From assembly GCA_913060525.1 (NCBI GenBank), contig CAJXRW010000001.1:289-64288 (forward strand): DNA of 64,000 bases. Direction: 5' to 3'. Source of the stretch: an uncultured Gammaproteobacteria bacterium (GTDB lineage Bacteria > Pseudomonadota > Gammaproteobacteria > Francisellales > Francisellaceae). This document shows, in pieces, positions 27,554-45,700 of this stretch (the stretch's first letter is position 1; each line of letters opens with the position of its first letter). Made by a program: the position numbers and the translations under genes. The notes beneath the pieces were generated by a model that saw only the letters and a list, made by a program, of their open reading frames with translations, searched no databases and was not told the origin of the DNA.

Positions 27554-27555
27554 AA

Positions 27556-27939
27556 CTAGGCATGATCTTGATCTAGGCTCACATTATTTTCATTCTTTCT
27601 GGCTTTCTTTCTATAAAAGAAATAGGCAAGTATTAAAGGGGAAATTGGAAATAATGATATTACCATCACATAAATACTGAAATCAAAAATAATGCTTATA
27701 GACTGAGGGTAAGTAACGTAATACAGATGATAATACATATCAATATTAAAAATAATCTCGATCAATAACCAAGAGAAAAACATTTTCATTATGTTAGGTT
27801 TGAATGTAAATGAGAATATTAACAAAACAATATAGGCCCAAAAATATATGTATTCTGCACCTTCCAAAGTTTTCACTAAATATGAAGGGATAAGAAATAT
27901 CAAAGTATAAAATAGTGCATATATAAATGAAAATATCAT
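27556..27939 (-). CDS. small polytopic membrane protein (candidate immunity protein)
   Basis: 127 aa with about 4 TM helices. Start overlaps the stop of the DUF2778-like gene (4-nt overlap). Confidence 0.5.
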   Translation of the reverse strand: MIFSFIYALFYTLIFLIPSYLVKTLEGAEYIYFWAYIVLLIFSFTFKPNIMKMFFSWLLIEIIFNIDMYYHLYYVTYPQSISIIFDFSIYVMVISLFPISPLILAYFFYRKKARKNENNVSLDQDHA

Positions 27940-28379: not shown

Positions 28380-28394
28380 ACTGTACCCATTATT

Positions 28395-29114: not shown

Positions 29115-29139
29115 TATTGCCTATTAACCTTTACAATCG

Positions 29140-29664: not shown

Positions 29665-29920
29665 AAAAACCCTTAATTTATAATATTTTGGTATTGTTGT
29701 TATTTTATACTATATTTTCTTAGCTAGAAACCTAGTCTGCACTAACCATAATTAATCACATTCATCCAATGTTTGTGAAACAGTAATTTTAATGTGAAAG
29801 CTCTAAAGCCCTTTTATTATATGGTTCAGAAGGCAACAAAAAGTCGCTTGCTGTCTATTTACTAACGTATTCCTACTAGACACCTAGAGCGGAAGCTAGG
29901 CAAGCTAGTTGCTGCCAGAT

Positions 29921-30000
29921 CTAAACCGTAAATTTTACCACGAATGGGGTCGCTACCCCGTGATATGCAGTCAGATTGCATCGTGGCGAGAGTTCCGGAA
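29921..30000 (+). repeat. diverged Tn3-family end module (left-type)
   Basis: TCTAAACCGTAAATTTTACCACGAATGG...TCAGATTGCATCGTGGCGAGAGTTCCGGAA. It has the same spacing (48-49 nt) between the TAAAC core and the TCAGATTGCAT subterminal repeat as the 30329 copy. The terminal part is only weakly similar. Confidence 0.5.
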
Positions 30001-30328
30001 CACATGACCTAGAATGGCCAATAAAACTACCAGAGACCCCTAAAGACTACACAAGTCATCTTTGGCAGAAAAAAAAGGGTATCAGACAATATAATTCCAT
30101 TTAGACATTAATTTTGAAGAAACCGCACCAAATAACCAGGATATTGGTTGGACCTCCATAATGGTTAGTAGTTGAATATGATAATTATTATATAACAATA
30201 CAAAAAATATATAATTTCAGCTAGCTCCTATCAATAAACACCTATTAATCATATCCCATATCATTAAAAATGCTGGTTATTAAACTTGTACTTGAGTAGA
30301 GCTAGCTTTCAAAAACACTATAATTTTC

Positions 30329-30407
30329 GGTTAAACTAAATATTTTGGACAAATCAGCAAAATATTGTGCGATATATATTCAGATTGCATTGTGGTGTGA
30401 GTTCCAG
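30329..30407 (+). repeat. Tn3-family transposon end module, left-type: IR 30329-30364 plus subterminal repeat 30381-30407
   Basis: GGTTAAACTAAATATTTTGGACAAATCAGCAAAATA followed by CAGATTGCATTGTGGTGTGAGTTCCAG. This is an inverted copy of 26646-26725, with roughly 85% identity by eye. Confidence 0.8.
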
Positions 30408-30493
30408 ATCACTGACCAATATTGATGAAATATTTGCACTAGCTATTAATACCTTGATAAACTTGGCTTGTTTAAAAATTAACTAAGTAAATA

Positions 30494-31444
30494 ATGGTAG
30501 CACAACGCAAACCCTGGATATGCATAAAGGATCAAATAAAAATATTGCAAAATAGAGGGATGAGCATCACTGATCCAGATAAAGCGGAGCGATATCTTAG
30601 AAATATTAACTACTATCGTCTAAGTGGTTACTGGCATGCCTTTAGAAAATCAGAAAATCGCGTATTCAGTGAGCAATTTGTAGATGGTACATGTTTTTCA
30701 AATATTGTTGATTTATATTATTTTGATAAAAGATTACGCCTAACATTACTGGATGCTATTGAAAGAATTGAAATTGCTATCCGCACTAACCTTTGTCACT
30801 TGCTTGGTGAGTATGATCCCATTGCTCATTTAGATACCAAATATTTAAACAGTGTGTATGCTAACCAAATACTTAAATCGGGTAAGACAAGATACCAAGA
30901 ATGGCAACAGAACCATACGAAACAAATTAATAGAAGAAAAACACGATCTACATTTATCCAGCATAATATTAAAAAATATGGTGATGAACTTTCAGTATGG
31001 GTAGCCTGTGAAGCTTGGGATTTTGGTTTGTTATCGCATATGTTTAAGATGTTAAAACCAGAAGATAAAACCAAGATTTCCTTAAGTTATAATATTGCAA
31101 GTGGTGTGGTTCTTGAAAGTTGGATACATACAATTAATGATATTCGTAATATTTGTTCTCACCATGACAGGCTATGGAATAACAAAATGAAAATTCGGCC
31201 TAAATATCATCCACTATTATCGCATTTACATCAATTTAAAGATAATCATGATGAATTTAATTTTTATTTATCAAGAGTATTTACAGTGATCATCATTATA
31301 AATGAATTTATCAAAGCAATTAATCCTACATCAAAATGGGTAGCCAGGATAAATAGTTTAATTAATGATTTTCCAAGCCATGATAATGGTAGGGTTAACT
31401 TAATTGAAATGGGTGTGCCTGATAATTGGCAGGAATACATTTAG
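30494..31444 (+). CDS. Abi_2 family abortive-infection protein (AbiD/AbiF-like)
   Basis: 316 aa. N-terminal QIKILQNRGMSI..AERYLRNINYYRLSGYWHAFR and downstream IRNICSHHDRLWN are the hallmark motifs of the Abi-like (Abi_2) family. Confidence 0.8.
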   Translation: MVAQRKPWICIKDQIKILQNRGMSITDPDKAERYLRNINYYRLSGYWHAFRKSENRVFSEQFVDGTCFSNIVDLYYFDKRLRLTLLDAIERIEIAIRTNLCHLLGEYDPIAHLDTKYLNSVYANQILKSGKTRYQEWQQNHTKQINRRKTRSTFIQHNIKKYGDELSVWVACEAWDFGLLSHMFKMLKPEDKTKISLSYNIASGVVLESWIHTINDIRNICSHHDRLWNNKMKIRPKYHPLLSHLHQFKDNHDEFNFYLSRVFTVIIIINEFIKAINPTSKWVARINSLINDFPSHDNGRVNLIEMGVPDNWQEYI

Positions 31445-31595
31445 AATAAAGGCCCCTACTCTATCAAAGATAGACAGGGGGCGTATCACCGATAAATGTA
31501 GCCAAATATTGCTATATTGTAAACTACTTATTATTAAATAAAGTAAAATATGTTGAAAAAATTTAACCTGAATATTTACGATAAAATGCATATTT

Positions 31596-31848
31596 GGCTC
31601 ACAGTAAAGATTGTGGACAAATCGGCAATATATCGATCAATACTCGATTGTCAGCAGGAAATAAAAGTAAACTCATCCTAATTAATCTCAATTAAACAAC
31701 GTAAGTACTGGAAATATTAGGATTAGTGACCGCATAACTAATTATGGATATTTGAGCCATCAGGAAGTCAAATATTAAAGATACCACTTCTTTAGTTATA
31801 TTTTGAAACACATTCTGACTATTTGTCCACGATTCTTAGTTCTAGGCC
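31596..31848. mobile_element. miniature Tn3-derived element (TIME-like, ~253 bp, non-coding)
   Basis: The left IR at 31596-31630 (GGCTCACAGTAAAGATTGTGGACAAATCGGCAATA) is type A. The right IR at 31811-31848 (reverse complement GGCCTAGAACTAAGAATCGTGGACAAATAGTCAGAATG) is type B. These are the same two IR types that bound the tnpI-tnpA transposon, in the opposite order. Confidence 0.7.
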
Positions 31849-31899
31849 AAATTTGAGATACTTGAAACGTGATTCAAACAAATTATAAATAGGGTTAAT

Positions 31900-32103
31900 A
31901 TGAGCAGGTTTAATAGCAATCAATATGAAGATGGTACATATAAAAGTATTCAAATTGATACACAAGATTCAACTCATAAAAAAATTAATGCTAGATGATC
32001 AGTCGTGCAATTAAGGAAATTGAACTCTAGGCCAAGAAAAATTCTAAATTTTTTGACGCCGCAGAAATTCCATGTCAAGATAAAATTACGTTTGCTAGTT
32101 TAA
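31900..32103 (+). pseudogene. IS30-family transposase C-terminal remnant with in-frame TGA
   Basis: My translation gives MSRFNSNQYEDGTYKSIQIDTQDSTHKKINAR*SVVQLRKLNSRPRKILNFLTPQKFHVKIKLRLLV. LNSRPRK.L.F.TP..F is the conserved C-terminal signature of IS30-family transposases. No upstream DDE region is present. Confidence 0.5.
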
Positions 32104-32157
32104 TCCGCCAAACTACTCATAAACATGAATCATTTTTCCTAGAACAAAGGTTTTAAT

Positions 32158-32718
32158 TTGGACATTCAAAAAGAAAAAATACATACTAGAAATATAATTG
32201 CAGATGGGTTTCGTCGAAATGATGGCCTATATGAGTTAGAAGCCAGTATATCGGACTGTAAGCATTACGAATTTCATAATGACTATATTGGTAAAGTTAA
32301 ACCTGGGCAATTTTTCCATAATATGAAAATTCAAATGGTATTAGATGCGTCACTAACCATTATTGATATAAAAGCAGAAACATTGGCTTCGCCTTTCGAA
32401 ATGTGTCCAAAAATTACTTCAAATTATAAAAAATTAAAAGGTATAAAAATTGATTTTGGATGGCCAAGAAGTGTAAGAAATATTGTTGGCAAGACAAAAG
32501 GATGTACTCATATAACAGAGTTATTACTCTATATAGGAACAGTAGCAATACAAACAATTTATGGAGATAAACAAAATCATGTCAGCAAAAAAAGTAAATT
32601 TGGTAAAGGATTAATCAACTCTTGTCATGCATGGGCTGAAAGCTCGCCAGTGACTAAAAAATATTTTCCTGAATACTGGCTTGCAGCAAGCACTGAGGAT
32701 AAATCAGCGAACTCCTAA
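32158..32718 (+). CDS. DUF2889-like protein
   Basis: 186 aa with a TTG start. RRNDGLYELEASISD...FHNMKIQMVLD...CPKITSNYKKLKGIKI...GKTKGCTHITELL matches my recollection of DUF2889 (GC-T-H-L-x-E-L core). Function unknown. Confidence 0.45.
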   Translation: MDIQKEKIHTRNIIADGFRRNDGLYELEASISDCKHYEFHNDYIGKVKPGQFFHNMKIQMVLDASLTIIDIKAETLASPFEMCPKITSNYKKLKGIKIDFGWPRSVRNIVGKTKGCTHITELLLYIGTVAIQTIYGDKQNHVSKKSKFGKGLINSCHAWAESSPVTKKYFPEYWLAASTEDKSANS

Positions 32719-32770
32719 CATATTGACATCAATTCGTTAAAGTTGTTGCATTTCTTTCCGACTAGTTACT

Positions 32771-33205
32771 TTAAATAATCGATAAAATATTACTACGAAT
32801 TTTTAACAAACTATCTACCAATATTTCATAATCCTTTCGATTAATACCATCAATGGCTTCTTCTAAAACTTCGTTTCCCAAGCTACGCAAGACACCTAAT
32901 AATGGTTTAACTCTATTTGTTAAATAAATGAGCTTTACACGTCTATCAGCTGGATCATTACGTCGTTCAACCCAATTGTTCTTTACTAATCGATCAATCA
33001 TTCTTGTCATAGAAATAGGTTGAACATCTAGGAGATTAGTTAAATCAGTTTGACGAATACCATTATGGTGTTTTAAATGAAGCAAGACAAGCCATTGCGC
33101 TCTCGTTAAACCTAATTCACTGGCTTTGCTGTCAAATTTTTTACGCAACAAGCGTGTAATATCCTGTATAATGAATCCTAAGCTTTCTTCATTGTCTTCA
33201 GACAT
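32771..33205 (-). CDS. MarR-family transcriptional regulator (EmrR-like)
   Basis: 144 aa with a winged HTH: LTRAQWLVLLHLKHHNGIRQTDLTNLLDVQPISMTRMIDRLVKNNWVERRNDPADRRVKLIYLT. Divergent from the efflux operon. Confidence 0.88.
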   Translation of the reverse strand: MSEDNEESLGFIIQDITRLLRKKFDSKASELGLTRAQWLVLLHLKHHNGIRQTDLTNLLDVQPISMTRMIDRLVKNNWVERRNDPADRRVKLIYLTNRVKPLLGVLRSLGNEVLEEAIDGINRKDYEILVDSLLKIRSNILSII

Positions 33206-33422
33206 ACTTTCTCTATTTATTGTGTTTTTGGTTACGCTTATTAAATTTAAGTATACTGAATCATATACTGAATAACGATAGTTACTGGAATTTCACCTTT
33301 AATCATCTTATCTCCAGATATTAATATTAAAAACAAACTGGTAGCCTTGACAGTTCATATCAAATGTTACTAAATTGACTTAAATATATTATAAGCATGG
33401 CTTAATATAAGCAAAGGCAATA

Positions 33423-34949
33423 ATGACTAGCATATCCGAAAAATCATTTTGGTCACAACCACGAACTCTTGTTGCCTATGCGTTAAGCTTATTAGCATTA
33501 GCTGAAATTGTAGATTTAACGATTGTAGCAGTTGCTGTTCCTCAGATTATGGGGTCAATTGGCGCTGATATTGACAGTATCGCCTTGGTTACAACAAGCT
33601 ATATAGTTGCTGCTGCCGTCTGTATTTTATTGTCAGGTCTAGTGATTCGGAAATTTGGTATGCGAAAAGTTACCATTATTTCTGCTATTGTATTTTGTGT
33701 TTCATCCATCCTCTGCGGGACATCTACTTCGCTATTTGAGATGGTATTATTTAGGATCATTCAAGGCATTGGTGGGGCATTTCTCCCCGCAATTGCTCAA
33801 GCCTATATTGCACAAAAATTTAAAAATAAAGAACAACAAATCATGATGACTATTTTTAGCTTGATCGTGGTCATGGGTCCAATAATTGGACCCATACTCG
33901 GCGGCGCACTATGTGAAAACATGACGTGGCGCTGGATCTTTTATGTAAATGTTCCAATTTGTATTATTGCGTTATTAATCATCTGGGTTTGGATGGAAAA
34001 AGATCATGTAAAAGACACTAAGATTGATTATATAAGTTTCTTATTGATGGCGTTTGGTATCGGTCTTTTAGAATATGTTATCGATGAAGGAAACAGTGAC
34101 AATTGGTTCGAATCTTTTTCTATTATTATTACCTTCTTCAGCTCACTAATCTTATTAGGCTTTTTTATTTGGCGAGGAATATTGGGGCAATCTATTGTTA
34201 AACTTTCATTGTTTAAGAATTATAATTTTGTCTTATCCTGTTTTACCATGTTTGTTTTTATCACATTCGCAACAGGCTCTTTGGCTTACTTTCCAACAAT
34301 GTTACAACAAAGCTATAATTATCCTGTAGATTTAGCTGGTTATATTACAGCACCTAGAGGAATAACTGCTATCTGTACAGCATTGATTATGCCAAGAATT
34401 ATCCCACTTATTGGGGCAAGAATGGTCATTTTTTTTGGCATGATTCTTTTTTCGGCTGGATGTTTTTTACTATCAAGTTATGGACCTGCTGTTAGTAAAG
34501 GGTTGGTCATATTTTCCATGATTTTACAAGGTATTGGTATGATGTCATTTTTTGCACCCATTATGAGTATTGCTTATGTAGGTATTGCAGATGAAGATAG
34601 CAGCGATGCTTCTGGCATCTTCAATTTTTTTAGAAATTTTGGAAGCTCGGTAGGAACTTCATTAGCAGCCACCATCATCTCACATCAATCACAAGTTAAT
34701 TATCATGGTCTAGGTGGTCACATCTCTCCGTATGCTAGAGGGTTTGAATGGTGGTCGCAGGATCTATCTGGCTTTTCAGATCAACATATAATCGCCATAG
34801 CTAATCAAGAACTCATCAAACAATCATCATTTATTAGCTACCTTGATTCATACCATCTTTTTGCCATTGGCATGCTCTGTATACTGTGGGTTCCCTTATT
34901 AATGAAAAGATCAAAGAAAAAAGCAACCACCACCCCTAAACATCATTAA
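33423..34949 (+). CDS. MFS DHA2-family (EmrB/QacA-type, 14-TM) efflux permease
   Basis: 508 aa with about 14 hydrophobic helices. Motif-A-like GLVIRKFGMRKV and motif-C-like GPIIGPILGG. Followed by a membrane-fusion protein and an OMF. Confidence 0.88.
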   Translation: MTSISEKSFWSQPRTLVAYALSLLALAEIVDLTIVAVAVPQIMGSIGADIDSIALVTTSYIVAAAVCILLSGLVIRKFGMRKVTIISAIVFCVSSILCGTSTSLFEMVLFRIIQGIGGAFLPAIAQAYIAQKFKNKEQQIMMTIFSLIVVMGPIIGPILGGALCENMTWRWIFYVNVPICIIALLIIWVWMEKDHVKDTKIDYISFLLMAFGIGLLEYVIDEGNSDNWFESFSIIITFFSSLILLGFFIWRGILGQSIVKLSLFKNYNFVLSCFTMFVFITFATGSLAYFPTMLQQSYNYPVDLAGYITAPRGITAICTALIMPRIIPLIGARMVIFFGMILFSAGCFLLSSYGPAVSKGLVIFSMILQGIGMMSFFAPIMSIAYVGIADEDSSDASGIFNFFRNFGSSVGTSLAATIISHQSQVNYHGLGGHISPYARGFEWWSQDLSGFSDQHIIAIANQELIKQSSFISYLDSYHLFAIGMLCILWVPLLMKRSKKKATTTPKHH

Positions 34950-34970
34950 TGATTGAGACAAGGACAAGAA

Positions 34971-35945
34971 ATGAAAATAAATAAAAAATTTATCATTGGG
35001 TTTACCATCGTAATAGTGGTGGCTAGCAGTATCTTTGGGTACTACATTTACACTTCGCTTTTTCCTGAAACGGATGATGCCTATATAAACGCTCACACTA
35101 TTGATATTGCCCCAAGAATAGAAGGTTTTATCAAAAGCATTAATGTTGAAAATAACCAGTATGTCCATGAAGGTGATTTATTATTAGAAATTGATCCAGC
35201 CGACTATCAGTTACAACTGGCCGAAGCAAAACAAAATTACTTGATTGCTAAACAAAAGTTGAATAATGCCGCACAACAAATTACAACCGCAGAAACAAAT
35301 GTTCGAAAGACTACCTCTGATTACGAATTTGCGCAGCAAATGGCTGAACGGTATCAACACTTATTTGAAAACAAAGCAGGATCTATGCAAGACATGCAGA
35401 AATATGACAATCAAAAAGACACAGCATTTGAAGCGTTAGAGCAAGCGAAGATTTCACTTGAGAATAGCAATACCCAATATCAAATTGCTCAATCTGAAAT
35501 TGAAATAGCCAAAACTAAAATAGATAATTCTAAACTGAATTTATCTTATACTAAAATTTATGCTGCAGTTGATGGCTTTATTGGTAACCTAAATTTACAA
35601 CGTGGACAACTTGTATCAGCTGGACAGAAACTTTTTGTCTTAGTTGATGACCATAAGTGGTGGGTGGATGTCAATTTGAAAGAGACACAACTTAGTCGTA
35701 TTAAACCAGGTCAGCCCGCTAAAATTGAATTGGATATGTATTCTCATACCTTCCACGGCACAGTAGAAAGTATCAGCCCTGCAAGCGGTACAAGCTTTTC
35801 TCTATTACCCGCTCAAAATGCTTCAGGGAACTGGGTCAAGGTTACACAACGATTCACCGTAAGAGTAAAGGTGGAAGATGATCCTAAATACCCACTCCGA
35901 ATCGGTGCCAGTGCTGTTGTTTCCATCAATACATTAGACAGTTAA
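34971..35945 (+). CDS. HlyD/EmrA-family membrane fusion protein
   Basis: The ORF is open from a TTG at 34953, but the ATG at 34971 has AAGGA upstream. Single N-terminal TM, long coiled-coil (QLQLAEAKQNY...), lipoyl/beta-barrel segments (VEGDLLLEIDP, YAAVDGFIGNLNLQRGQ). Confidence 0.85.
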   Translation: MKINKKFIIGFTIVIVVASSIFGYYIYTSLFPETDDAYINAHTIDIAPRIEGFIKSINVENNQYVHEGDLLLEIDPADYQLQLAEAKQNYLIAKQKLNNAAQQITTAETNVRKTTSDYEFAQQMAERYQHLFENKAGSMQDMQKYDNQKDTAFEALEQAKISLENSNTQYQIAQSEIEIAKTKIDNSKLNLSYTKIYAAVDGFIGNLNLQRGQLVSAGQKLFVLVDDHKWWVDVNLKETQLSRIKPGQPAKIELDMYSHTFHGTVESISPASGTSFSLLPAQNASGNWVKVTQRFTVRVKVEDDPKYPLRIGASAVVSINTLDS

Positions 35946-35957
35946 TAGGGATAGATC

Positions 35958-37463
35958 ATGGGTAAAATTCACCTATTACAAATTATCAATAAAAAAATAT
36001 TATACCTATCCATTAGCTTCATTCCGTTTATCACTGGTTGCGGCCTCTTTGGTCCAGAGTACAAAAAACCAGGAATTGACTCGCCAACTGCCTGGAATAG
36101 TCACAGCAGGCAAACAGAAACGACTCAAACCTATATGCCAGACTTTGCTTGGTGGGAACAATTTAATGATCCTCAGTTAAATAAGCTAATTACAGACGCC
36201 TTGGAGAATAATAATAATATTCAAATCGCTATAGGTAATATTCTTCAGGCTAAGGCATCTTTACGTAAAGTAAATTATTCTTGGCTACCTACTGCCAATG
36301 TAAATGGTTTAGTTAGCGTTGGACAGGTTTTTGGCACTAATTTCACCAACAAAAGTGGTAACCCTCAATTAAATAGTTTAGGTCAAAATAGCTCGCAAGG
36401 TTTCTATAGTTACGGTGGTGGCTTTATGCCAAGCTATTCTGTCAACATTATGAAACAATTAAAATCTGGTGATATTGCGAAGCTTAATGTTTCATTACAA
36501 GAGCAAGCAAAAAATGCTGTTCGGCTAACCATTATTGGTCAGGTTGCTGGTAGTTATTTTGAACTTTTGGGTACACAAAAACAACTTAAGTTACAAGAGC
36601 AAACTATTAAAGATGCTGAAACATTAAAAAAATATGCCCTAGTCCAATATGAAGCAGGAAAAGTATCTGAACTGAATATCATTGGACTAGAACAATTTAT
36701 TGCCACATTAAAAGAACAAATACCTAATCTTAAGCAGAATATTACGCAATATCAAAATACATTACGTTTATTAACCAATCATAATCCAGGGAAAATAATT
36801 ACGCACAATCATTTTGATCAGATTGAAACTGACCAAATCATTCCAATAAACCTACCCTCAGAAATTTTAAAGGCTCGCCCTGATATCGCGGTTTCAGAAC
36901 ATCAATTACAAATTAGTAATACCAAAATAGGTTTGGCAACCTCCTCATATTTTCCTTCTATTTCTTTAACAGGTTTATTAGGTGGTGCATCAACTCAATT
37001 AACCAATTTATTCTCTATGGGTATGGGTGTATGGATGGCAGGTTTACAAGCAGGCATGCCAGTATTTGATATGACCATTTCAGCAGAAAGGGATGAAGCC
37101 AAAGCCGAATATTACTCTAATTATTACCGCTACATTGAAACAGTCCGAAATGCTTTTATGGAAACAGATAATGCCTTATCTCAAAATAAAAATATTAATA
37201 TGAGTTATCTTCAGCAAAAACAGGCATTATTAAAAGCAAATCAGCAGCTTCAACTCGCTGAGATGCAATATGAATATGGTGCAATAAGCTATAATGACGC
37301 ATTAGCTTTCAAATTAAATGCGGATTACATGACGGTTAATTTGAACAAATCGAAAATGAATCAAATGGACAGTATTGTTAATTTATATCTAGTCTTTGGT
37401 GGTGGTTATAATATTAATAATTCCGATATACCAAAACAGTTTGGTGATGACCATGATATATAA
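35958..37463 (+). CDS. outer-membrane factor lipoprotein (NodT/TolC family)
   Basis: 501 aa with lipobox ITGC. PEYKKP...WW..FNDPQLNKLI start typical of NodT-family OMFs, and two repeated coiled halves. Confidence 0.88.
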   Translation: MGKIHLLQIINKKILYLSISFIPFITGCGLFGPEYKKPGIDSPTAWNSHSRQTETTQTYMPDFAWWEQFNDPQLNKLITDALENNNNIQIAIGNILQAKASLRKVNYSWLPTANVNGLVSVGQVFGTNFTNKSGNPQLNSLGQNSSQGFYSYGGGFMPSYSVNIMKQLKSGDIAKLNVSLQEQAKNAVRLTIIGQVAGSYFELLGTQKQLKLQEQTIKDAETLKKYALVQYEAGKVSELNIIGLEQFIATLKEQIPNLKQNITQYQNTLRLLTNHNPGKIITHNHFDQIETDQIIPINLPSEILKARPDIAVSEHQLQISNTKIGLATSSYFPSISLTGLLGGASTQLTNLFSMGMGVWMAGLQAGMPVFDMTISAERDEAKAEYYSNYYRYIETVRNAFMETDNALSQNKNINMSYLQQKQALLKANQQLQLAEMQYEYGAISYNDALAFKLNADYMTVNLNKSKMNQMDSIVNLYLVFGGGYNINNSDIPKQFGDDHDI

Positions 37464-37465
37464 AA

Positions 37466-37496
37466 AATATTAAGGCTGGTCTTATATCTTAATATT
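37466..37496 (+). terminator. weak AT-rich hairpin after the efflux operon
   Basis: AATATTAAG (37466-37474) pairs with CTTAATATT (37488-37496) around a 13-nt loop, 3 nt after the OMF stop. There is no strong T-tract. Confidence 0.3.
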
Positions 37497-37801
37497 TATG
37501 GCAAGTTAACTGTATGTTGGCATAAAATCATACTAGATTTTAAAAGGTTAATCAGTTATTGACCTTTTGTTTCTAAGTTAGATGGGTAAATCATGGTCTA
37601 GAACTAAGGGTTGTTGGCAAATAGACAGAATGGTTATCAAAATATAACCATAACTGACTGAACTCCTTAAATTTAATAGCAAAATCTATGAAATAGGATG
37701 CGTCCATAATCAATATTATGCGATTAGAAAATTGTATTTTCTATACTTATTATATTAAAAGAGCTACATTATCTAATATAAATGTGATCGTATAATAATT
37801 T

Positions 37802-38677
37802 ATGGCTAAAAACTACTTAATTGAGCGTTACGTTGAGCACCTGACTTCTCAGGATAAATCACAGTCCACGATTATAAGCTATCGTTCAGATTTGTATTTA
37901 TTTGCAAAGTGGTTTGAACAAGTCAACCATGAGGAATTGAAAGCACATACCATTACACCAACAGACTTAAGAGCCTATAAACAGTATTTAATTGATTACC
38001 CATTTAAGCCCATGACCATTAATCGCAAAATATCAGTCATTAATTTATTTGTCATTTGGTTATTAGATACAGATCGAATCAAATCACGTATTCCACTACC
38101 TAAGTTAGTTAAGCTAACCCAAACTGCTCCTAAGTGGCTGGATAAAAATCAACAACACTTTATGCTACGTCATTTAGAAAAACATGGTAATGAGCGAGAC
38201 CTAGCTATCGTTAGACTTCTATTAAATACTGGCTTGCGTGTTAATGAGCTAATTTCTTTGCAATGGAGCGATGTATCACTATCAACAAAAAAAGGAATGA
38301 TTCACATCCGTTACAGTAAAGCAGCCCGCTATCGAGATATACCGCTAAATAAGGATGCTCGATTTGCTTTAACTGCATTAGGGTATAGCTCTAAATCTAA
38401 ATCATCTGAACCAATTTTTGAAGGTCAAAAAGCCAGGCTTGATGTACGAGGTGTTCAATTGTTATTAAAGCGTCGATTCAAGCATACTGACTTAGACTTT
38501 ATTTCACCCCATATATTACGCCATACATTTTGTAAAAACTTAATGAATGCAGGTGTAAGTTTAGAGAAAGTCGCTTTATTAGCAGGTCATGAAAGTCTTG
38601 ATACTACTAAAGTTTATTGTCAACCTTCATTTAATGATCTAACCGAATCAGTTGAGCGAATTGGAGAGCAAGAGTAA
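37802..38677 (+). CDS. tnpI: tyrosine recombinase, TnpI-like cointegrate resolvase
   Basis: 291 aa. N-terminal SAM-like core-binding domain, then catalytic R (TGLRVNEL), HILRHTF, GHESLDTTKVY. Stop abuts the tnpA start (TAAATG). Confidence 0.85.
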   Translation: MAKNYLIERYVEHLTSQDKSQSTIISYRSDLYLFAKWFEQVNHEELKAHTITPTDLRAYKQYLIDYPFKPMTINRKISVINLFVIWLLDTDRIKSRIPLPKLVKLTQTAPKWLDKNQQHFMLRHLEKHGNERDLAIVRLLLNTGLRVNELISLQWSDVSLSTKKGMIHIRYSKAARYRDIPLNKDARFALTALGYSSKSKSSEPIFEGQKARLDVRGVQLLLKRRFKHTDLDFISPHILRHTFCKNLMNAGVSLEKVALLAGHESLDTTKVYCQPSFNDLTESVERIGEQE

Positions 38678-41600
38678 ATGAGCCAATTTCATATTTTACA
38701 TTACCACGAAATCGAGAAATTTAAACAACCACCACGCTTCTCCAAAGATGAACGTATGAAAGTCTTTGTTCTCGATCTTCAGATTAATAATCTGCTAAAA
38801 GGTCTAAAACGATCTGATGAAAATAAAGTAGGTTTTTTATTGCAACTGGGGTATTACAAGACCACAAACAAGTTCTTTAGAGCTGAATATTTTAAGTCGG
38901 CTGATATTTATTATGTTAGCCAATTACTCAATGTAAATGTTAGTCCAAAATCAATGAAATTGAATTATAAAGACAGGACGCGTACTGAACATACCAAGAA
39001 GGTATTAGATTGTTTAGGGCATGAACCTTATTTACATTATGAGGACTTAATTGAAGAGAATGTGGTTGAGATGGTGGAAAAGCAACAGCATCCAAAACAA
39101 ATTATGTTCTCGATTATTGATTTATTACGAGAAAAAAGAATATCAATACCCAGTTATGATTATTTTTGTAAAGTATTAACGGATCATTTCAGGGACTTTG
39201 AAAAGTCATTATTAGATAAGCTGGAAAGTTTATTATCAGGACAACAATGCCAAGCATTTGATGACTTGTTAGATGAAGGTAAACCATTTGAACATTCTTT
39301 ACTAACAAAACTCAAAACAATTAATCAATCGGTTCAGCCTGTGAATATCAAAGTATCAATTCAGTATTTTTTGATTCTTAAACGACTTTACCAAGAACTC
39401 AAAGATGTTATTGATCAATTGGGCATTTCAACAGAAGCCATTAACTTTTATGCTGGTTGGGTTAAAAAGGCGCAAACCAGAACACAAATACAAGAAATCA
39501 TGAATGAGAACAGACAGCGCTTGTATTTGTTATCATTCATTATTTTCCAGCACCGTCACTATGAAGATACGCTGCTGGATATACATCAGAAATGTGTTGG
39601 TCAGTATATTAAACAGATTGAAAAGGAAGTTGACCAAACAAAACTACAAGATGCGGATGAAAAAGATAGTTTAGGCGAATCAGTTATAAATGGTTATCAA
39701 TCTAAAGCGGAAACCATTAAGAATGCACGCCAGGTCATCCATGAGCCATCTATCGAAAATGATAAGAAAATTGATATCCTAAAATTTATTATTCCTGAGA
39801 CCCAAACAAAACAAGAAACAGAATCAGATCAAGCAGTTGAACAACTTCAAGAAGAATTATCAGATGCAATTAAACAAGCCAAACGCTTTAATATAATGCT
39901 TGCAAATGCAAGCAAATTACATCAGCGAGTAGCTGATATTGTCAAACACTTAAGCTTTACCTCAAATGATCCTGTATTAGAAAAAGCCATTGTTTATTAC
40001 CAAACACAAAGTAAAGTTACAAAAAATGCGCCAACTGATCATCTGAGTAAAGAGGAGTATGAGGCAGTATTCAATAATGGTAAATTTGAAATACAGCTTT
40101 ATAAAAGTATTTTATTTACCCATATTTATGAGGGGATTAGATCAGGATCAATAAGCTTAATTCATTCCTACAAATATTTACCTATCGAAAGTTATATGTT
40201 AGATGAGGAAAATTGGCATTTGCATCGTGATCATATCCTGCAACGGTTAGGATTAGAGAAATTTGCGGATATAGAGGCATTACTAACCAAATTAAAGCAA
40301 CAACTTGATCCTACTTACCTTAGAGTGAATGAAAATATTCTCAAACGAGAAAATAATTATGTTCGATTTACCAATGGTAAAGGAAAATTCATTATTAATA
40401 CCCCGCCAATTGAAAAGCCAGATTATCAAGGTTTAGCTAAGCTATTTAGCGAGCATGAGAATATTCCAATTCTTAATATTATTAGACGTATGGATCTCTA
40501 CACTAATATCTCATCCTCTTTTCGTCACTATAAAGTTAGAAATAATCTGATAAAACCCTCGAGGGAGATTTTCTATGCAGGTTTATTTGCATTAGCAAGC
40601 AATATGGGAGCCTACCAATTATCCAATACATCCATAGGGATTAATTATGATAAATTAGCCCATGCCATTACTTGGTACTTCACCTTGGATAATCTATATG
40701 AAATTAATGAAATGATATTAGATTTCATGCAAAAACTAGAGGTAACCAATCTATTTAAGAAAGAGAAAAATTTACTTCACTCATCAAGCGATGCGAAAAA
40801 ACGCATTGTTACTGCTGAATCATTAAATGCTAATTATTCATATAAATATTTTGGTCAAGGCAAAGGTTCAAACGTCTATATGTTTGTTGATGAACGAGGC
40901 TTCTTTTTTTATTCCAATGTCTTTAGTAGTGCTGAAAGAGACGCGGCTTATGTTATAGATGGTCTCATGCACAGCAATAGTATCAAGGTTGACATACATT
41001 CAACCGATACCCATGGTTACAGTGAAATGGTGTTTGCTTTAAGCCACCTACTGGGTATTACATTTGCACCACGGATAGCTAATATACAAGAGCAGGTATT
41101 ATCTTATTTTGATTATCCTGAAAGTCTTCTGGAAAATACCAATTTTCGAATCATACCAACACACCCAATCAATCTAAGCTCTATAAAAAAGCATTGGGAA
41201 TTGATATTAAGACTATTAGCTAGCATCAAAACAAAGAACTTCAAAGCTTCTACAATTTTGAAGCGTTTATCAACTTATACTAAGCAACACGCTTTGCAGC
41301 AAGCTATAAAAGAATTTGGAAAGATAATTAAGTCTATTTTTATTCTTGAATATATTGATAACGTTACCTTGCGCCAAGATATAGAAAAGCAACTCAACAA
41401 GGGCGAGCTAGCTAACCGTTTCTCAGGGGTTGTTTCATTTGCAAATAACCAAGAAATTACTCAAGTACATCGAGAAGACCAAGAAATATCAGCCATGTGT
41501 AAGCTCATAGTACAAAACATGATTATCGCCTGGAACTATATTGAATTGACCAAAATAATTATGCGATCACAATCAAAAGAAGAAAGAGATAAATTAATTA

Positions 41601-41731
41601 AAAATATAAAGGAACTATCTATTATCTCATGGCAGCATATCAATATGTTTGGGCTATATGACTTCAGCTCACTTGAAGCTGGAAATGACTCGGAATTTGA
41701 TCTTGATCAGATATTGGCTTTTCAGGCATAA
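38678..41731 (+). CDS. tnpA: Tn3-family DDE transposase
   Basis: 1017 aa. Hallmark C-terminal catalytic region DIHSTDTHGYSEMVFALSHLLGITFAPRI, and a size typical of TnpA(Tn3). Confidence 0.93.
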   Translation: MSQFHILHYHEIEKFKQPPRFSKDERMKVFVLDLQINNLLKGLKRSDENKVGFLLQLGYYKTTNKFFRAEYFKSADIYYVSQLLNVNVSPKSMKLNYKDRTRTEHTKKVLDCLGHEPYLHYEDLIEENVVEMVEKQQHPKQIMFSIIDLLREKRISIPSYDYFCKVLTDHFRDFEKSLLDKLESLLSGQQCQAFDDLLDEGKPFEHSLLTKLKTINQSVQPVNIKVSIQYFLILKRLYQELKDVIDQLGISTEAINFYAGWVKKAQTRTQIQEIMNENRQRLYLLSFIIFQHRHYEDTLLDIHQKCVGQYIKQIEKEVDQTKLQDADEKDSLGESVINGYQSKAETIKNARQVIHEPSIENDKKIDILKFIIPETQTKQETESDQAVEQLQEELSDAIKQAKRFNIMLANASKLHQRVADIVKHLSFTSNDPVLEKAIVYYQTQSKVTKNAPTDHLSKEEYEAVFNNGKFEIQLYKSILFTHIYEGIRSGSISLIHSYKYLPIESYMLDEENWHLHRDHILQRLGLEKFADIEALLTKLKQQLDPTYLRVNENILKRENNYVRFTNGKGKFIINTPPIEKPDYQGLAKLFSEHENIPILNIIRRMDLYTNISSSFRHYKVRNNLIKPSREIFYAGLFALASNMGAYQLSNTSIGINYDKLAHAITWYFTLDNLYEINEMILDFMQKLEVTNLFKKEKNLLHSSSDAKKRIVTAESLNANYSYKYFGQGKGSNVYMFVDERGFFFYSNVFSSAERDAAYVIDGLMHSNSIKVDIHSTDTHGYSEMVFALSHLLGITFAPRIANIQEQVLSYFDYPESLLENTNFRIIPTHPINLSSIKKHWELILRLLASIKTKNFKASTILKRLSTYTKQHALQQAIKEFGKIIKSIFILEYIDNVTLRQDIEKQLNKGELANRFSGVVSFANNQEITQVHREDQEISAMCKLIVQNMIIAWNYIELTKIIMRSQSKEERDKLIKNIKELSIISWQHINMFGLYDFSSLEAGNDSEFDLDQILAFQA

Positions 41732-41826
41732 TTTAAACTATGATTAAATATAGAACAACATTTTGCCGATTTGTCCACAATCTTTAGTTTAACCCATATT
41801 TAGTCGTAATTTCCCACCAGTATAAT

Positions 41827-42513
41827 TTATCGTTTATGTCGGAATTTGGTTTTATATTTCTCTAGGTGTGTGGCTTGTGGTGATACCTTATCATATGCTT
41901 TTGATGCAAAATGATTTTGCTCCAAGTCTGCAGTTATTTTTGATGTTCCTGGTACTAAATTCTGAGAGATTAGTCTTTCCATAGGCTTATAGTTAACATG
42001 GTGTGTACCGGCGATACTCGCTTGAATATAAGCTTGTTTACTCATATTTCTCCATTGAATATTATAACCATACTGCTTGGCCAGTGATGTAATAAATAGT
42101 CGGTTTGCACGCCCATTGCCCTCTCTGAATGGATGGGCCGCATTAATCTCATTAAAATATTCAGATAATTTATGACTCAGATCACCACGATTCAATTCAT
42201 GTAAATTTTCCTGGTTCAACCTTTTAAATAGCTTGCTAAGCTCTGGCTCTATTCGGTGCGGCATGGCAAATAAGGTACTACCTTTTGATATATCAATGCT
42301 GCGAACTGATCCAGCCCACGGATAGATGTCACCAAATAAATGCTTGTGGATCTGCTTCAGGTGATCTAAATCAAACTTACCTTTAGGTGCTGGCTGTATA
42401 TAACGTTTACTTACAACTTTCTTTTCTAATTCAGCTAACTGTTTAGTATTTTTTATATTGAGAGAATTGATAAGGGTTTGAGTACCAGGATAAAGATAAG
42501 GATCTTGCGCCAA
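41827..42513 (-). CDS. fic: Fic-family (Fido) protein, E. coli Fic-like AMPylase toxin
   Basis: 228 aa. N-terminal DPYLYPGT as in E. coli Fic, and active-site motif HPFREGNGRANR (HPFx[D/E]GNGRxxR). Strongly basic C-terminal tail EKYKTKFRHKR. Confidence 0.9.
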   Translation of the reverse strand: MAQDPYLYPGTQTLINSLNIKNTKQLAELEKKVVSKRYIQPAPKGKFDLDHLKQIHKHLFGDIYPWAGSVRSIDISKGSTLFAMPHRIEPELSKLFKRLNQENLHELNRGDLSHKLSEYFNEINAAHPFREGNGRANRLFITSLAKQYGYNIQWRNMSKQAYIQASIAGTHHVNYKPMERLISQNLVPGTSKITADLEQNHFASKAYDKVSPQATHLEKYKTKFRHKR

Positions 42514-42516
42514 AAA

Positions 42517-42723
42517 TTAAGCCACTTGTTTCGCTTGTTGGAGATCTGCAGCAATTGCATCGTCTATTGAGCAACCATCATTTTCTAAATCGGCCAACTC
42601 ATCAATGTCAGATTGTGTGATAGTAACATTCTCTAAAAAATTAGCCGCAAGTGCTTCAATACTTTCTTCACTCAAATGGCGAATAGTTAAGTTTTGTTGC
42701 TGGCAATATTCAATAAAAGACAT
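42517..42723 (-). CDS. putative Fic antitoxin (small acidic protein, YhfG/VbhA-like by position)
   Basis: 68 aa from the ATG at 42723 (AGGAAA RBS); the ORF track extends to a TTG at 42765. Acidic protein whose stop lies 3 nt before the fic start. I could not find a clean [S/T]xxxE[G/N] inhibitory motif (closest is AANFLEN). Confidence 0.55.
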   Translation of the reverse strand: MSFIEYCQQQNLTIRHLSEESIEALAANFLENVTITQSDIDELADLENDGCSIDDAIAADLQQAKQVA

Positions 42724-42798
42724 CTGGCTTTCCTGTTGCGATTTATAGATATAATTATACCACAAAACACCCTCAAATGCAGCAAGACAAGGTTTTTG

Positions 42799-45700
42799 TT
42801 AGCGTGACCGGCCTTTATTTTTCTTCGGTGCGCCAGGTGTGTATTTAGGTTTTTTCTCAAGCTCGGCTAAGTAATTTTCAAGGTCTTTATATGCCTGGCT
42901 ATTCTCAATTCTTTGGGCCATTTCTTGGCGAGTTAATTTCGGTTTAACTTCTGCAGCTGGCTGCTCGGCCATACGCTTAGCATAACGGCCATAATCAAGC
43001 TCAACCCTATCTAAGACTTTCATATCTTTAGCAAAAGCTTTCGCTTTAGGATCTTGCATAACGATATAGGCATACTCCTGGCCCTTTTCCATGAATGTCT
43101 TTCTGGTTTCCGCATCGATGCGCCCTATCTCTGTATTTTTAAAGCCAAGTAAAGCGCGGCGTTCTGCACGTAAGTAATTACGCACCTTTTTCAAAGGTGT
43201 ATGATCTAATTGCTTAATTTGGCCAATCTTGGTGATTTGATCCAGACGGTGTTTCCAGTTCTTATCGTACTCAGGAATAGCAACGCCCAAGTCTTTTCGT
43301 AGCCCATCCACCCCTTTCACTTGCAAGATATCATTCCAATCTGTTTTTTGTTTGTTGGCCAACATTTGTGGTGTTTTAATAATGGGTTGCAAACCAGCAT
43401 CCTTTAAGGCTTTGATCGCCTTATTAAAGGCCACCTCAGACTTAGCATTTTTACCATCGTTGTCTTTTAATATGATGAGCTCTTTTGGCTGGTGTGCTTT
43501 CAGTGCTTCAGCTGAATTTGATAAGTTTGATACAGATAATGACGTTAAGACCGTTGATTTTGGATCTGCTAAACCAGCACTTGCGCCTGTTTCACCACCC
43601 TCGGCAACATAGACTCGGCCATTTGTGCCATTCTGGATAACACCCAAATTGCCTTTTAAATGCCCTTTAGTAACTTTAGGGTTATCCATGAAACTGACTT
43701 TATCATAAGTCTTACTGTCCAGGTAAGTACGTTGAATAGCCGTAATATCATGATTTTTATCTTTTATGGCCAAGACCATTGCCGGTAATTTATTGGTGCG
43801 TTCTATACGCTGGCCAGCTTCGTTATAATCCACCCATTTCGTACCCACTGGCCAGTAACGCATCTCCATGTTATCAGCTGTATGGATGTTTCTATTCTCC
43901 CATAAATAACGCTCAGCTACGGTATCAGCAATCGGTTTTGTACCCATCCAAATAGATTGAGCCGCTTCAATCTTATTGCGGATTTCCTGGGCCGCTCTTG
44001 CTTTGCGTTTGTTATCTGCTTCAGGATCAGTTTTAAATACAAATTTGCTCTCAGTTGTTTTTGCTTCAGCTTCACTTAAACCGGCTAAATGTGCGCCTTG
44101 TTCAAGTGCTTCAACATAGGATGAGCCAGGTAGACGATGGCGTATTGCTTCAATAGGATCTCCCCCTTTTTCTTCTGAGAAGCTAAACCACATGCCTTGT
44201 TTAGCGCCCTGCAGTGTCACCACCAGGCCATTTTCCCATCGCATTTCTCTTGAGCTTTGTTTTTTAGGCTCACCAAATATCTGCGGATAGACATGTTCGG
44301 CTTGCTGGATCAATCGATCACGGATTTTGTTATGATCCCATTGCTGGATCTGGCGTTCTTCAACTTGTGGTTGAGTCGTAGCCTGGTTCACTTCAGGTTT
44401 AACCACTTGCTGCATTTGTAGTTGACGTGTTTTGGCCAATGCATTTTCAAATTGTTCCGCATGCTTGACTAGTTTTGAGTGTTGTATAGACTCAAAATTA
44501 AGATACGGCTTATATGTTTCACTTGAAGCCAAAATACTAGCAGCAAGGACATTACGTTGCCTTGATAACGCAAAAGCCTTTTGCTTATCAGCCTGATTCT
44601 GCTTCACGCTTACCCACTCAGCTGCAGCTTGACGACTTAACGCTTGATAATCTTTAACACGTTGATATAAGCCACGTTCATCATCAGATAAACTTAGCTC
44701 AAATACCTCACGGCGATATGCTTGTGCATTCATATAAAAGGATTTGCCATCAATATCTAGGTGTTGTACGCCTTGGTAAATTGCACCTTTAGCATATTGA
44801 TCTTGAATACTAGCGGCCCATTCATTTTTGGTAAATCCGGTTTTCTCCTGGTACTGTTTCAAATCATCAATAACCTCATAAGATTGCGACTGTTTATGAA
44901 TACGTTGCCAATCAAATTTTTCCACTTGATCGCTAACAAAAACATAGTTTGATCTATCTTCAGATAAGTATTGCGACAGATTAAATGCGGCGGCATTACG
45001 CGCCATCGTGTGCTTATACGCCGTGTCTTTTAGTTCTGCAGATACGCTTTGACCTGATTTTTCTTTCATACGAATAGCCGCCCATGCTTGGGCCGCTTCA
45101 CGCGATGTTAAATCATAATCTACAGCAGCATCAAACACACCACGCTTTTCCTCTGGCAATTTGCTTGCCTGCAGCTGATAGCCATAACGCTTACCTTGCA
45201 GCCAAATTTTAGCCGAGTCACATTCATACATCTTAATGTAAAAAGCATGCTTACCGTAACGCTGAATAATTTGATAGGCAGCTGCACCATCTTTTTCACC
45301 ACCATCAGCATACTGTTTCACTCGGTCTTGCGCTTCAAGACGTTCTTCATGCAGGGCAACGTGGCGATTAAAGCGATCCATTTTTAGACCTGGGAATGTT
45401 TCATCGATTTTCTCCGGATTAGCGCGATACCATTGTTCCAATAATGGATAACTGTTATTAACGTCATAGGCTAACTCATGGCGTTCGGCCATCAGCTTAA
45501 ACATATCACTTCTTTGTGACTTAAACTCTTCAGTCATGTGTTCATCGGTCAGCTGTGCCTTATCAGATAAACCATGCTGTTTTCTTAACGCTTTTTCTAA
45601 TGCCTGTACTTCGGCATATTGCTGAGCCGCTTTACGACACACGGATTGATAATCTTGAACCGCATCGAACATTTCAACTTGTCCAGCTGGAAGATTAGCA

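What the first reader, a model, noticed from the sequence alone, without database searches (positions are those of the whole stretch)
31590..41801. 10.2-kb composite Tn3-family transposon carrying a tripartite efflux system, bracketed by matching IRs and an ATATTT direct repeat
Seen: a type-A IR at 31596 (inside to the right) and a type-A IR at 41795 (inside to the left) share a 24-nt identical core (TAAAGATTGTGGACAAATCGGCAA). The six bases outside each end are identical: ATATTT at 31590-31595 and at 41796-41801. Between them lie a 253-bp miniature element, an IS30 remnant, a DUF2889 gene, marR-emrB-emrA-OMF and a complete tnpI-tnpA transposon. In contrast, the 4.2-kb core transposon (37595-41795) has no matching flanks (AATCAT vs ATATTT). 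Established: Tn3-family elements make 5-bp target duplications. The 6-bp match is compatible with a 5-bp duplication if the IR tip is ambiguous by 1 nt. Inference: the whole 10.2-kb unit, not just the core transposon, was the entity that inserted here next to the fic/relaxase genes. A miniature end element has therefore recruited an efflux operon into a mobile unit.
Basis: partly seen in the sequence, partly recalled or inferred. Interest (0 to 1): 0.6.

Follow-up and report, generated by a model that had tools for sequence, protein, structure and literature searches.

The report
Efflux-pump transposon caught before and after
A 10,200-base Tn3-family transposon carrying a three-part drug-efflux pump inserted as one piece into a conjugative plasmid of an uncultured Francisella relative; the same plasmid without it and a second plasmid with it were both found, so the claim holds, but it is a well-known kind of element.

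Summary

- **Ends.** IR-C starts at 31596 and IR-F ends at 41795. They share the stated 24-nt core and are flanked by ATATTT on both sides.
- **Empty site.** Two independent metagenome contigs carry the same plasmid backbone with Abi joined directly to Fic across a single ATATTT: a 56-kb JGI contig and a Logan contig.
- **Second site.** The identical-length unit (10,200 bp, 13 substitutions) sits in a different conjugative plasmid that has a TrwC relaxase. It ends at exactly the same IR tips.
- **Duplication length.** It is most likely a true 6 bp, not 5 bp plus an ambiguous tip. Two relatives also have perfect 6-bp repeats: AACTAC in a family member, and AATGAC in Caedibacter pKAP298.
- **Contents.** A 253-bp miniature element, a weak IS30-like remnant, DUF2889, marR, emrB, emrA, an outer-membrane factor, then tnpI-tnpA.

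How the composite arose is unresolved. The inner ends D and E occur nowhere else, and neither the 4.2-kb core nor the miniature was seen on its own.

The architecture parallels Tn1721/Tn1722 and TIME-COMPs, so this is a new member of a known kind. The efflux substrate is unknown.

The parts
31590..31595 (.). Left copy of the 6-bp target-site duplication ATATTT
   Evidence: present once in empty-site contigs L032 and L026, twice in the window.
31596..31633 (+). IR-C, outer left terminal inverted repeat of the 10.2-kb unit
   Evidence: 32 of 38 identical to IR-F, with a 24-nt identical core. Homology with the second plasmid (L027) starts at this tip.
31596..31848 (+). 253-bp TIME-like miniature element (IR-C ... 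IR-D), with no transposase ORF
   Evidence: its ends resemble F (51 nt, 80%) and E (55 nt, 82%). No other copy in the MAG or in 68 genomes of the order.
31811..31848 (-). IR-D, inner end of the miniature element
   Evidence: 31 of 38 identical to IR-E. It has one extra base near the tip relative to F-type IRs.
31999..32103 (+). Possible remnant of the C-terminus of an IS30-family transposase
   Evidence: One search gives the frame. One search found no NCBIfam hit. One search gave only non-significant tblastn hits, two of them inside annotated IS30 transposases. Weak support.
32158..32718 (+). DUF2889 protein gene (cargo)
   Evidence: PF11136, E 3.6e-35.
32771..33205 (-). marR-family regulator, divergent from the pump genes
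   Evidence: PF01047, E 1.1e-17.
33423..34949 (+). emrB-type DHA2 MFS efflux permease
   Evidence: TIGR00711, 322 bits (cut-off 230).
34953..35945 (+). emrA/HlyD-type periplasmic adaptor
   Evidence: HlyD_D23, E 2e-23. TIGR00998 scored 263 bits, below its cut-off of 391. TIGR01730 scored 121 bits, above its cut-off of 95.
35958..37463 (+). Outer-membrane efflux factor (NodT/TolC type)
   Evidence: TIGR01845, 241 bits (cut-off 210); PF02321 twice.
37595..37632 (+). IR-E, inner left end of the 4.2-kb tnpI-tnpA core
   Evidence: the nearly invariant TGGACAAAT reads TTGGCAAAT here, so this is the most divergent end of the family.
37712..37800 (+). Putative internal resolution site and tnpI promoter region
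   Evidence: inverted motifs TTATGCGAT and ATCGTATAA are conserved in the G029 and TARA relatives. Inference only.
37802..38677 (+). tnpI, tyrosine recombinase (cointegrate resolution)
   Evidence: Phage_integrase, E 8.5e-31. Identical in both plasmid contexts.
38678..41731 (+). tnpA, Tn3-family DDE transposase (1017 aa)
   Evidence: NF033527, 583 bits. Best solved structure is Tn4430 TnpA (7qd4), E 4e-60.
41758..41795 (-). IR-F, outer right terminal inverted repeat
   Evidence: Homology with L027, L028 and L031 runs up to this tip.
41796..41801 (.). Right copy of the 6-bp target-site duplication ATATTT

Best explanation
Window 31596-41795 is one 10,200-bp Tn3-family transposon. Its transposase TnpA acted on the outermost inverted repeats, C at the left and F at the right. 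It copied the whole segment into the 176-bp spacer between the convergent Abi and Fic genes of a conjugative plasmid of about 56 kb, duplicating the 6-bp target ATATTT.

By analogy with other Tn3-family elements, the move would go through a plasmid-plasmid cointegrate. The co-encoded tyrosine recombinase TnpI would resolve this at a site just upstream of tnpI. That step is inferred, not shown.

The cargo is a DUF2889 gene and a MarR-regulated EmrB-EmrA-OMF tripartite MFS efflux pump of unknown substrate.

The unit is nested. It holds a complete 4.2-kb tnpI-tnpA element (ends E and F) at the right and a 253-bp miniature element (ends C and D) at the left, much as Tn1721 holds Tn1722.
For: Shown:
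1. Empty site with a single ATATTT in two independent assemblies of the same backbone. L032 matches window 26165-31595 at 99.85% and 41795-49650 at 98.05%. L026 matches likewise.
2. The same unit, exactly 10,200 bp with 13 substitutions, lies in a different conjugative plasmid. Homology breaks at the same IR tips, in two samples.
3. The right junction was assembled identically in three further datasets, L023, L024 and L025.
4. All seven genes are intact in both copies. TnpA and TnpI are identical between them.
5. TnpA meets the NCBIfam Tn3 equivalog cut-off.
6. Perfect 6-bp repeats flank related elements: AACTAC (G029; TnpA 62% identical) and AATGAC (Caedibacter pKAP298; 43%).
7. A chance 6 of 6 match has probability 0.0005.
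Against: - At the second site the flanks are ACTATT and AATATT, only 5 of 6. That insertion therefore lacks a clean duplication, and no empty site for it was found.
- Transposition itself, the cointegrate and the TnpI site are inferred from family knowledge.
- All data are metagenome assemblies.
Confidence: 0.93

Rival explanations
1. Same mobility, different origin. C is the transposon's original left IR and the efflux genes are ordinary passenger genes acquired between IRL and tnpI. D and E are internal relics of another related element. On this reading the unit is not a composite assembled from a free miniature element plus a free 4.2-kb transposon.
For: - In all four complete relatives the two IRs are near-identical and F-type.
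- In three of them (G029, L050, L051) passenger genes sit between IRL and tnpI.
- The C/F pair (32 of 38) is far more alike than the E/F pair.
- E has the most degenerate core of the family.
- D/E-type ends occur nowhere else in 68 genomes of the order.
- Neither the core nor the miniature was ever seen alone.
Against: - D and E face away from the cargo. Two relic ends in that arrangement need more events than two simple insertions flanking an operon.
- The miniature and the core carry the same pairing of end types (one F-type, one D/E-type), as expected if one derives from a relative of the other.
Confidence: 0.3
2. The two junctions arose independently. The core transposon and the miniature element inserted separately into a plasmid that already carried the efflux genes, and the ATATTT match is chance in AT-rich DNA.
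For: - The window holds at least seven related IRs, so several end pairings could be tried.
- Matches of 5 out of 6 do occur by chance here: ATATTT against AAATTT at the miniature's own flanks. P(>=5 of 6) = 0.0075.
Against: - The empty-site contigs join 31595 directly to 41796 with one ATATTT and none of the cargo.
- The identical 10,200-bp segment is bounded by the same tips in another plasmid.
Confidence: 0.01
3. The plasmids without the unit lost it by precise excision or deletion between the 6-bp repeats. On this reading they do not represent the never-occupied state.
For: Direction cannot be read from two states alone. The backbones differ by 0.15% on the left and 1.95% on the right, so they are not immediate ancestor and descendant.
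Against: - Tn3-family elements transpose replicatively, and precise loss over 6 bp of homology is very rare (established knowledge).
- Even if true, the unit must first have inserted as one piece to be flanked by the duplication.
Confidence: 0.04
4. Assembly artefact. The unit belongs only to the second plasmid and was mis-joined into the window contig.
For: Both plasmids co-occur in two samples. The genome is a fragmented MAG of 448 contigs.
Against: - A mis-join would not create a perfect target duplication at the exact IR tips.
- The Fic/IR-F/tnpA junction is identical in three other assemblies.
- The contig closes on itself with a 40-bp overlap at 65,548 bp.
Confidence: 0.02

Closest known systems
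Tn1721 / Tn1722 (Tn21 subgroup of the Tn3 family)
   Same: - Nested design: a complete smaller transposon with tnpA sits at one end.
- An extra IR further out turns the intervening efflux genes into part of a larger transposon sharing one end. In Tn1721 those genes are tetR-tetA, also an MFS pump with a divergent regulator.
- About 10-11 kb in length.
   Different: - The extra end here belongs to a 253-bp miniature with two IRs, not to a duplicated truncated tnpA end.
- Resolution is by a tyrosine recombinase (TnpI), not a serine resolvase (TnpR) acting at res.
- The duplication is 6 bp, not 5 bp.
- The cargo is a tripartite pump.
- Independent movement of the small element is not shown here.
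- The Tn1721 details come from memory plus PMC13367494.
[quoted passage not shown] 2014, PMC4133298; Gomi and Yano 2026, PMC13367494)
   Same: - A short element without a transposase but with Tn3-type IRs supplies an outer end, so adjacent genes are mobilised.
- AT-rich duplications of 5 or 6 bp.
- Plasmid-borne, with resistance-type cargo.
   Different: - Only one end is a miniature. The other is an autonomous transposon, so the unit supplies its own transposase and resolution system instead of needing them in trans.
- The miniature has no other copies.
Tn4430 / Tn5401 (TnpI-type Tn3-family transposons of Bacillus thuringiensis)
   Same: - The tnpI-tnpA order, with the resolution site upstream of tnpI.
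- The TnpA of Tn4430 is the best solved-structure match (7qd4, E 4e-60).
   Different: - Distant in sequence.
- Gram-negative host.
- 6-bp rather than 5-bp duplication.
- Unlike left and right ends in the core.
TnpI-type Tn3 elements of Legionella plasmids and Caedibacter taeniospiralis pKAP298
   Same: - These are the closest annotated relatives (TnpA 43-46% identical).
- Same tnpI-tnpA module, with passenger genes beside it.
- The pKAP298 element has a perfect 6-bp repeat.
   Different: - Different cargo.
- The L. pneumophila copy has a 5-bp repeat, ACATT.
- None has the four-IR nested layout.
EmrAB-TolC of Escherichia coli (tripartite MFS efflux)
   Same: A DHA2 permease, an EmrA-type adaptor, an outer-membrane factor and a MarR-type regulator (EmrR is of the MarR family).
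   Different: - The OMF is encoded in the operon.
- The nearest non-identical EmrB relatives are only 63% identical. Named ones are chromosomal Francisella and Allofrancisella proteins at 53-56%.
- The substrate is unknown.

Membership tests
Tn3-family transposon | Large (~1000 aa) DDE transposase with a DUF4158 N-terminus and a DDE_Tnp_Tn3 domain | tested here: met
   (PF01526, E 1.2e-106, full length; PF13700). (NF033527, 583 bits, above its cut-off of 500).
Tn3-family transposon | Terminal inverted repeats of about 38 bp starting with G-rich tips | tested here: met
   C and F share 32 of 38 positions. Tips read GGC.../GGG.... The TGGACAAAT core is nearly invariant across 14 ends.
Tn3-family transposon | Short target-site duplication (5 bp, sometimes 6 bp) demonstrated against an empty site | tested here: met
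   a single ATATTT in the empty site, two copies in the window. The literature allows 6 bp (PMC4133298, PMC13367494).
Tn3-family transposon | Cointegrate-resolution module (recombinase plus its site) | tested here: inconclusive
   The TnpI tyrosine recombinase is present. Its site is only inferred from conserved inverted motifs.
Tn3-family transposon | Replicative transposition through a cointegrate | not testable with these tools
   Needs a mating-out assay.
TIME (Tn3-derived inverted-repeat miniature element), for 31596-31848 | 50-500 bp, no transposase, ends like those of a Tn3-family transposon | tested here: met
   253 bp. C resembles F and D resembles E.
TIME (Tn3-derived inverted-repeat miniature element), for 31596-31848 | Evidence of its own mobility (own duplication or several copies) | tested here: not met
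   Flanks are ATATTT and AAATTT, and the left one belongs to the big unit's target. No other copy in the MAG or in 68 genomes of the order.
TIME-COMP | Bounded at both ends by TIME copies, with transposase supplied in trans | tested here: not met
   The right end is a complete tnpI-tnpA transposon.
Tn1721-like nested transposon | A smaller autonomous transposon shares one end with a larger one that adds cargo and an extra IR | tested here: met
   for the layout. for movement of the large form.
Tn1721-like nested transposon | The small element also transposes on its own | tested here: not met
   No solitary E-F copy was found. Its flanks AATCAT and ATATTT differ.
EmrAB-OMF tripartite MFS efflux system | DHA2 14-TMS permease, membrane-fusion adaptor and outer-membrane factor, all adjacent | tested here: met
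   TIGR00711 and TIGR01845 score above their cut-offs. The adaptor passes TIGR01730 but not the EmrA-specific model.
EmrAB-OMF tripartite MFS efflux system | Export of defined drugs or toxic compounds | not testable with these tools
   Needs MIC or transport assays.

The most novel reading that the evidence does not exclude
The TnpI-type Tn3 clade found in Francisellaceae and Caedibacter may regularly cut its target with a 6-bp stagger, preferring A-N4-T sites, rather than the canonical 5 bp of Tn3 and Tn4430. That would give a natural variant for asking what sets the strand-transfer spacing in the Tn3 transpososome.

A linked possibility is that end E is so degenerate that the 4.2-kb core can no longer move alone. 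The efflux-carrying 10.2-kb form would then be the obligate mobile unit.
Probability: 0.5. Interest if true: 0.45.

Novelty: new member of a known kind. Interest (0 to 1): 0.4.

Why it matters
- **A natural before-and-after record.** It shows a Tn3-family element moving a complete tripartite efflux operon between two conjugative plasmid backbones. The bacteria are uncultured Francisella relatives, a lineage whose mobile elements are little described.
- **Annotation value.** It gives exact ends, target and duplication length for a previously undescribed transposon, which helps annotate related Legionella, Caedibacter and Francisellaceae plasmids.
- **A mechanistic hint.** This clade appears to make 6-bp duplications, which could be tested against the solved Tn4430 transpososome.
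- **Limits.** It does not reveal a new mechanism, and it says nothing yet about what the pump exports.

Tried and rejected
- **PLSDB megablast** of the whole region: no match.
- **DNA search of 60 relatives:** only about 67%-identical chromosomal emrB-emrA-OMF homologues and one 66% tnpI-tnpA copy. No empty site.
- **IR-core pattern scans** of metagenome contigs and genome contigs. These gave only two TARA relatives, two unrelated hits and one solo IR. No new insertion sites of the unit.
- **Empty site for the second plasmid:** exact-protein look-ups of its flanking genes returned only occupied contigs.
- **D/E-type IR search** in 68 genomes: only the two in this unit.
- **Solo F-type IRs in relatives** (G018, G015, G027, G006): single ends at contig edges, so useless for duplication length.
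- **IS30 remnant:** no significant support.
- **Rfam** on the window: no hit.
- **Promoter and terminator scan:** no more sites than in shuffles.
- **Rejected: a 5-bp duplication with a shifted IR tip.** It needs unequal ends and the same coincidental A in every case.
Full report
**1. What is in the sequence**

The left end starts at 31596 (GGCTCACAGTAAAGATTGTGGACAAATCGGCAA). The right end, read inward from 41795, is GGGTTAAACTAAAGATTGTGGACAAATCGGCAA. The 24-nt core is exact at 31605-31628 (+) and 41763-41786 (-), against none expected in shuffles. ATATTT lies directly outside both tips, and the repeat is exactly 6 bp because the next base out differs on each side.

Two inner ends of a second sequence type face away from the cargo:
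- D ends at 31848.
- E starts at 37595.
- D and E share 31 of 38 positions and carry one extra base near the tip compared with F-type ends.

This defines a 253-bp miniature element (31596-31848) and a 4,201-bp tnpI-tnpA core (37595-41795).

| Coordinates | Strand | Gene or feature |
|---|---|---|
| 30494-31444 | + | Abi_2 (outside, left) |
| 32158-32718 | + | DUF2889 |
| 32771-33205 | - | MarR regulator |
| 33423-34949 | + | DHA2 MFS EmrB-type permease (TIGR00711, 322 bits) |
| 34953-35945 | + | HlyD/EmrA-type adaptor |
| 35958-37463 | + | NodT-type outer-membrane factor (TIGR01845, 241 bits) |
| 37802-38677 | + | TnpI tyrosine recombinase |
| 38678-41731 | + | Tn3 transposase (NF033527, 583 bits) |
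| 41827-42513 | - | Fic (outside, right) |

The 'IS30 remnant' (31999-32103) rests on a recalled C-terminal motif and on non-significant hits.

**2. Was the match more than chance?**

The window holds further ends of the same family at 26725 (-), 30328 (+) and about 29920 (+). Several end pairings could therefore have been tried. Two random 6-mers of this window are identical with probability 0.0005, and match at 5 or more of 6 positions with probability 0.0075. Statistics alone would be suggestive. The comparative evidence below is decisive.

**3. The empty site**

An exact-protein look-up of Fic and Abi found the same plasmid backbone without the unit.
- L032 is from a 56,478-bp JGI contig (3300036355, Ga0401695_00081). 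It matches window 26165-31595 at 99.85%, then continues directly into 41795-49650 at 98.05%.
- L026 (Logan SRR12363488) shows the same join.
- Both read ...GATAAAATGC ATATTT AGTCGTAATTTCCC..., with one ATATTT.

The insertion lies in the 176-bp spacer between the convergent Abi and Fic genes, so it disrupts no gene. Ends A and B are present in the empty plasmid, so they predate this event.

The occupied right junction is assembled identically in three other datasets: ERZ1743499, ERZ27299633 and SRR3933381.

**4. The same unit elsewhere**

A look-up of TnpA found the unit in a different conjugative plasmid. That plasmid has a TrwC relaxase, a coupling protein and a DUF6685 neighbour. It was seen in the same JGI sample (65,302-bp contig; L027, L029, L031) and in SRR12363488 (L028, L030).
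- No other homology between the two backbones was detected.
- The copy is exactly 10,200 bp and differs by 13 substitutions.
- All seven genes are intact, and TnpA and TnpI are identical.

In two samples, then, the second plasmid carries the unit while the window-type plasmid is empty. In the window's genome and three other datasets the window-type plasmid is occupied. This is what a transposition between co-resident plasmids would leave, but the direction and the donor are not shown.

The flanks at the second site are ACTATT and AATATT (5 of 6). No empty version of that site was found.

**5. Length of the duplication**

With symmetric tips, a 5-bp reading fails: TATTT against ATATT. A survey of related elements in the 6-bp register gave the following.

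| Element | TnpA identity | Left / right flank | Match |
|---|---|---|---|
| Window unit, this site | 100% | ATATTT / ATATTT | 6 of 6 |
| Window unit, second plasmid (L027) | 100% | ACTATT / AATATT | 5 of 6 |
| G029, same-family genome | 62% | AACTAC / AACTAC | 6 of 6 |
| L051 | 58% | AATATT / ATCATT | 4 of 6 |
| L050 | 56% | ATACCT / ATACTT | 5 of 6 |
| Caedibacter taeniospiralis pKAP298 | 43% | AATGAC / AATGAC | 6 of 6 |
| Legionella pneumophila plasmid | 45% | ACATT / ACATT | 5 bp |
| Three other Legionella plasmid copies | about 45% | none | - |

Every 6-bp repeat starts with A, and most end with T.

Published work records 5-bp or sometimes 6-bp AT-rich repeats for Tn3-derived miniature elements and their composites (PMC4133298, PMC13367494). 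The 6-bp repeat is therefore real and in keeping with the family. It may be typical of this clade.

**6. Likely mechanism**

Shown:
- The ends and the duplication.
- The unit's presence at two sites.
- The intact transposition genes.

Inferred from the Tn3 family:
- TnpA pairs C and F and performs copy-in transposition, giving a cointegrate.
- TnpI resolves the cointegrate at a site upstream of its gene. Candidate binding motifs are the inverted TTATGCGAT (37715-37723) and ATCGTATAA (37788-37796). Both are conserved in the G029 and TARA relatives.

The cargo would give the recipient plasmid a MarR-controlled EmrAB-OMF pump. Its nearest non-identical EmrB relatives are only 63% identical, and the named ones are chromosomal Francisella and Allofrancisella proteins at 53-56%. 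Chromosomal homologues in relatives are about 67% identical in DNA. The source of the operon is therefore an unsampled member of the same broad lineage.

**7. Origin of the nested structure (unresolved)**

The outer pair then moved everything.

*Reading B.* C is the original left IR, the operon is a passenger, and D and E are relics.

Points for B:
- Relatives have two F-type IRs.
- Three of them carry passengers between IRL and tnpI.
- E is the most degenerate end.
- D/E-type ends and solitary copies were found nowhere else.

Point for A: it needs fewer events. Both readings give the same mobile unit.

**8. Comparison with known elements, and verdict**

- **Tn1721/Tn1722:** same nested logic, also with efflux cargo.
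- **TIME-COMPs:** same use of a miniature end, but here only one end is a miniature and the unit is autonomous.
- **Tn4430-type elements:** same tnpI-tnpA module.
- **Closest annotated relatives:** Legionella plasmids and Caedibacter pKAP298.

The host contig is a 65,548-bp, probably circular, conjugative plasmid in a 33-36% GC MAG. An earlier scan note calls the host an uncultured Francisella relative. This agrees with the named relatives seen here.

This is a new member of a known kind, of moderate interest.

Noticed in passing
window 26640-26725 (-), 30328-30412 (+), about 29918-30003 (+): Three more ends of the same IR family. A and B share an 86-nt end (79% identical) that includes a subterminal CAGATTGCATYGTGG..GAGTTCC block. 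They face outward around the 3.6-kb island at 26807-29664. Both are present in the empty-site plasmid L032, so they predate the 10.2-kb insertion. No matching flanks were seen.
   Followed up: partly
window 33031-37272 compared with L027: Twelve of the 13 substitutions between the two copies of the unit fall in marR..OMF (4.2 kb), and only one in the other 6 kb. Four change amino acids: EmrB L342F and A501E, EmrA L36F, OMF E439Q. This could reflect gene conversion with another allele or selection on the pump.
   Followed up: partly
window 26165-31595 and 41795-49650 compared with L032: The backbone left of the insertion is 99.85% identical to the empty plasmid, but the right side (Fic, relaxase) is only 98.05% identical, with 153 mismatches. 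L026 is 97.25% identical on that side. The backbone looks mosaic.
   Followed up: no
L032 1-126 (left of window 26165): The empty-site plasmid diverges from the window left of 26165. Its sequence there matches MAG contigs C2 and C3 at 85-93%, which suggests a repeated element at a rearrangement point.
   Followed up: no
G000 C1 ends (just outside window 1 and 64000): Contig C1 is 65,548 bp and its ends overlap by 40 bp within 33-bp tandem repeats (GAGATATCAAACGGTAATCAAACGGTTAACAAA). These look like iterons, and the overlap fits a closed circular plasmid.
   Followed up: partly
L039 (G029:C119), L057 (NC_005915), L050, L051: Related tnpI-tnpA transposons carry other passengers between IRL and tnpI, for example a GDSL lipase and an IS630 insertion. 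Where their duplications are clean they are 6 bp and start with A.
   Followed up: yes
L055 (Legionella lytica pLlyPCM2298_1), L056 (L. fallonii plasmid II): The Legionella relatives of this transposon sit beside a MarR/PhzF gene set and a CzcA-type RND metal-efflux cluster. Whether these lie inside the transposon ends was checked only roughly.
   Followed up: partly
window 32009-32085; G001:C57:15468-15546: A 77-bp stretch of the putative IS30 remnant is 90% identical to an intergenic stretch in a same-genus genome. This suggests a decayed IS shared in the lineage.
   Followed up: partly
G000 C114, C291, C3: The MAG holds three other Tn3-family transposase genes that are only 23-27% identical to this one. 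An F-like IR fragment lies at C3:13647-13676.
   Followed up: no
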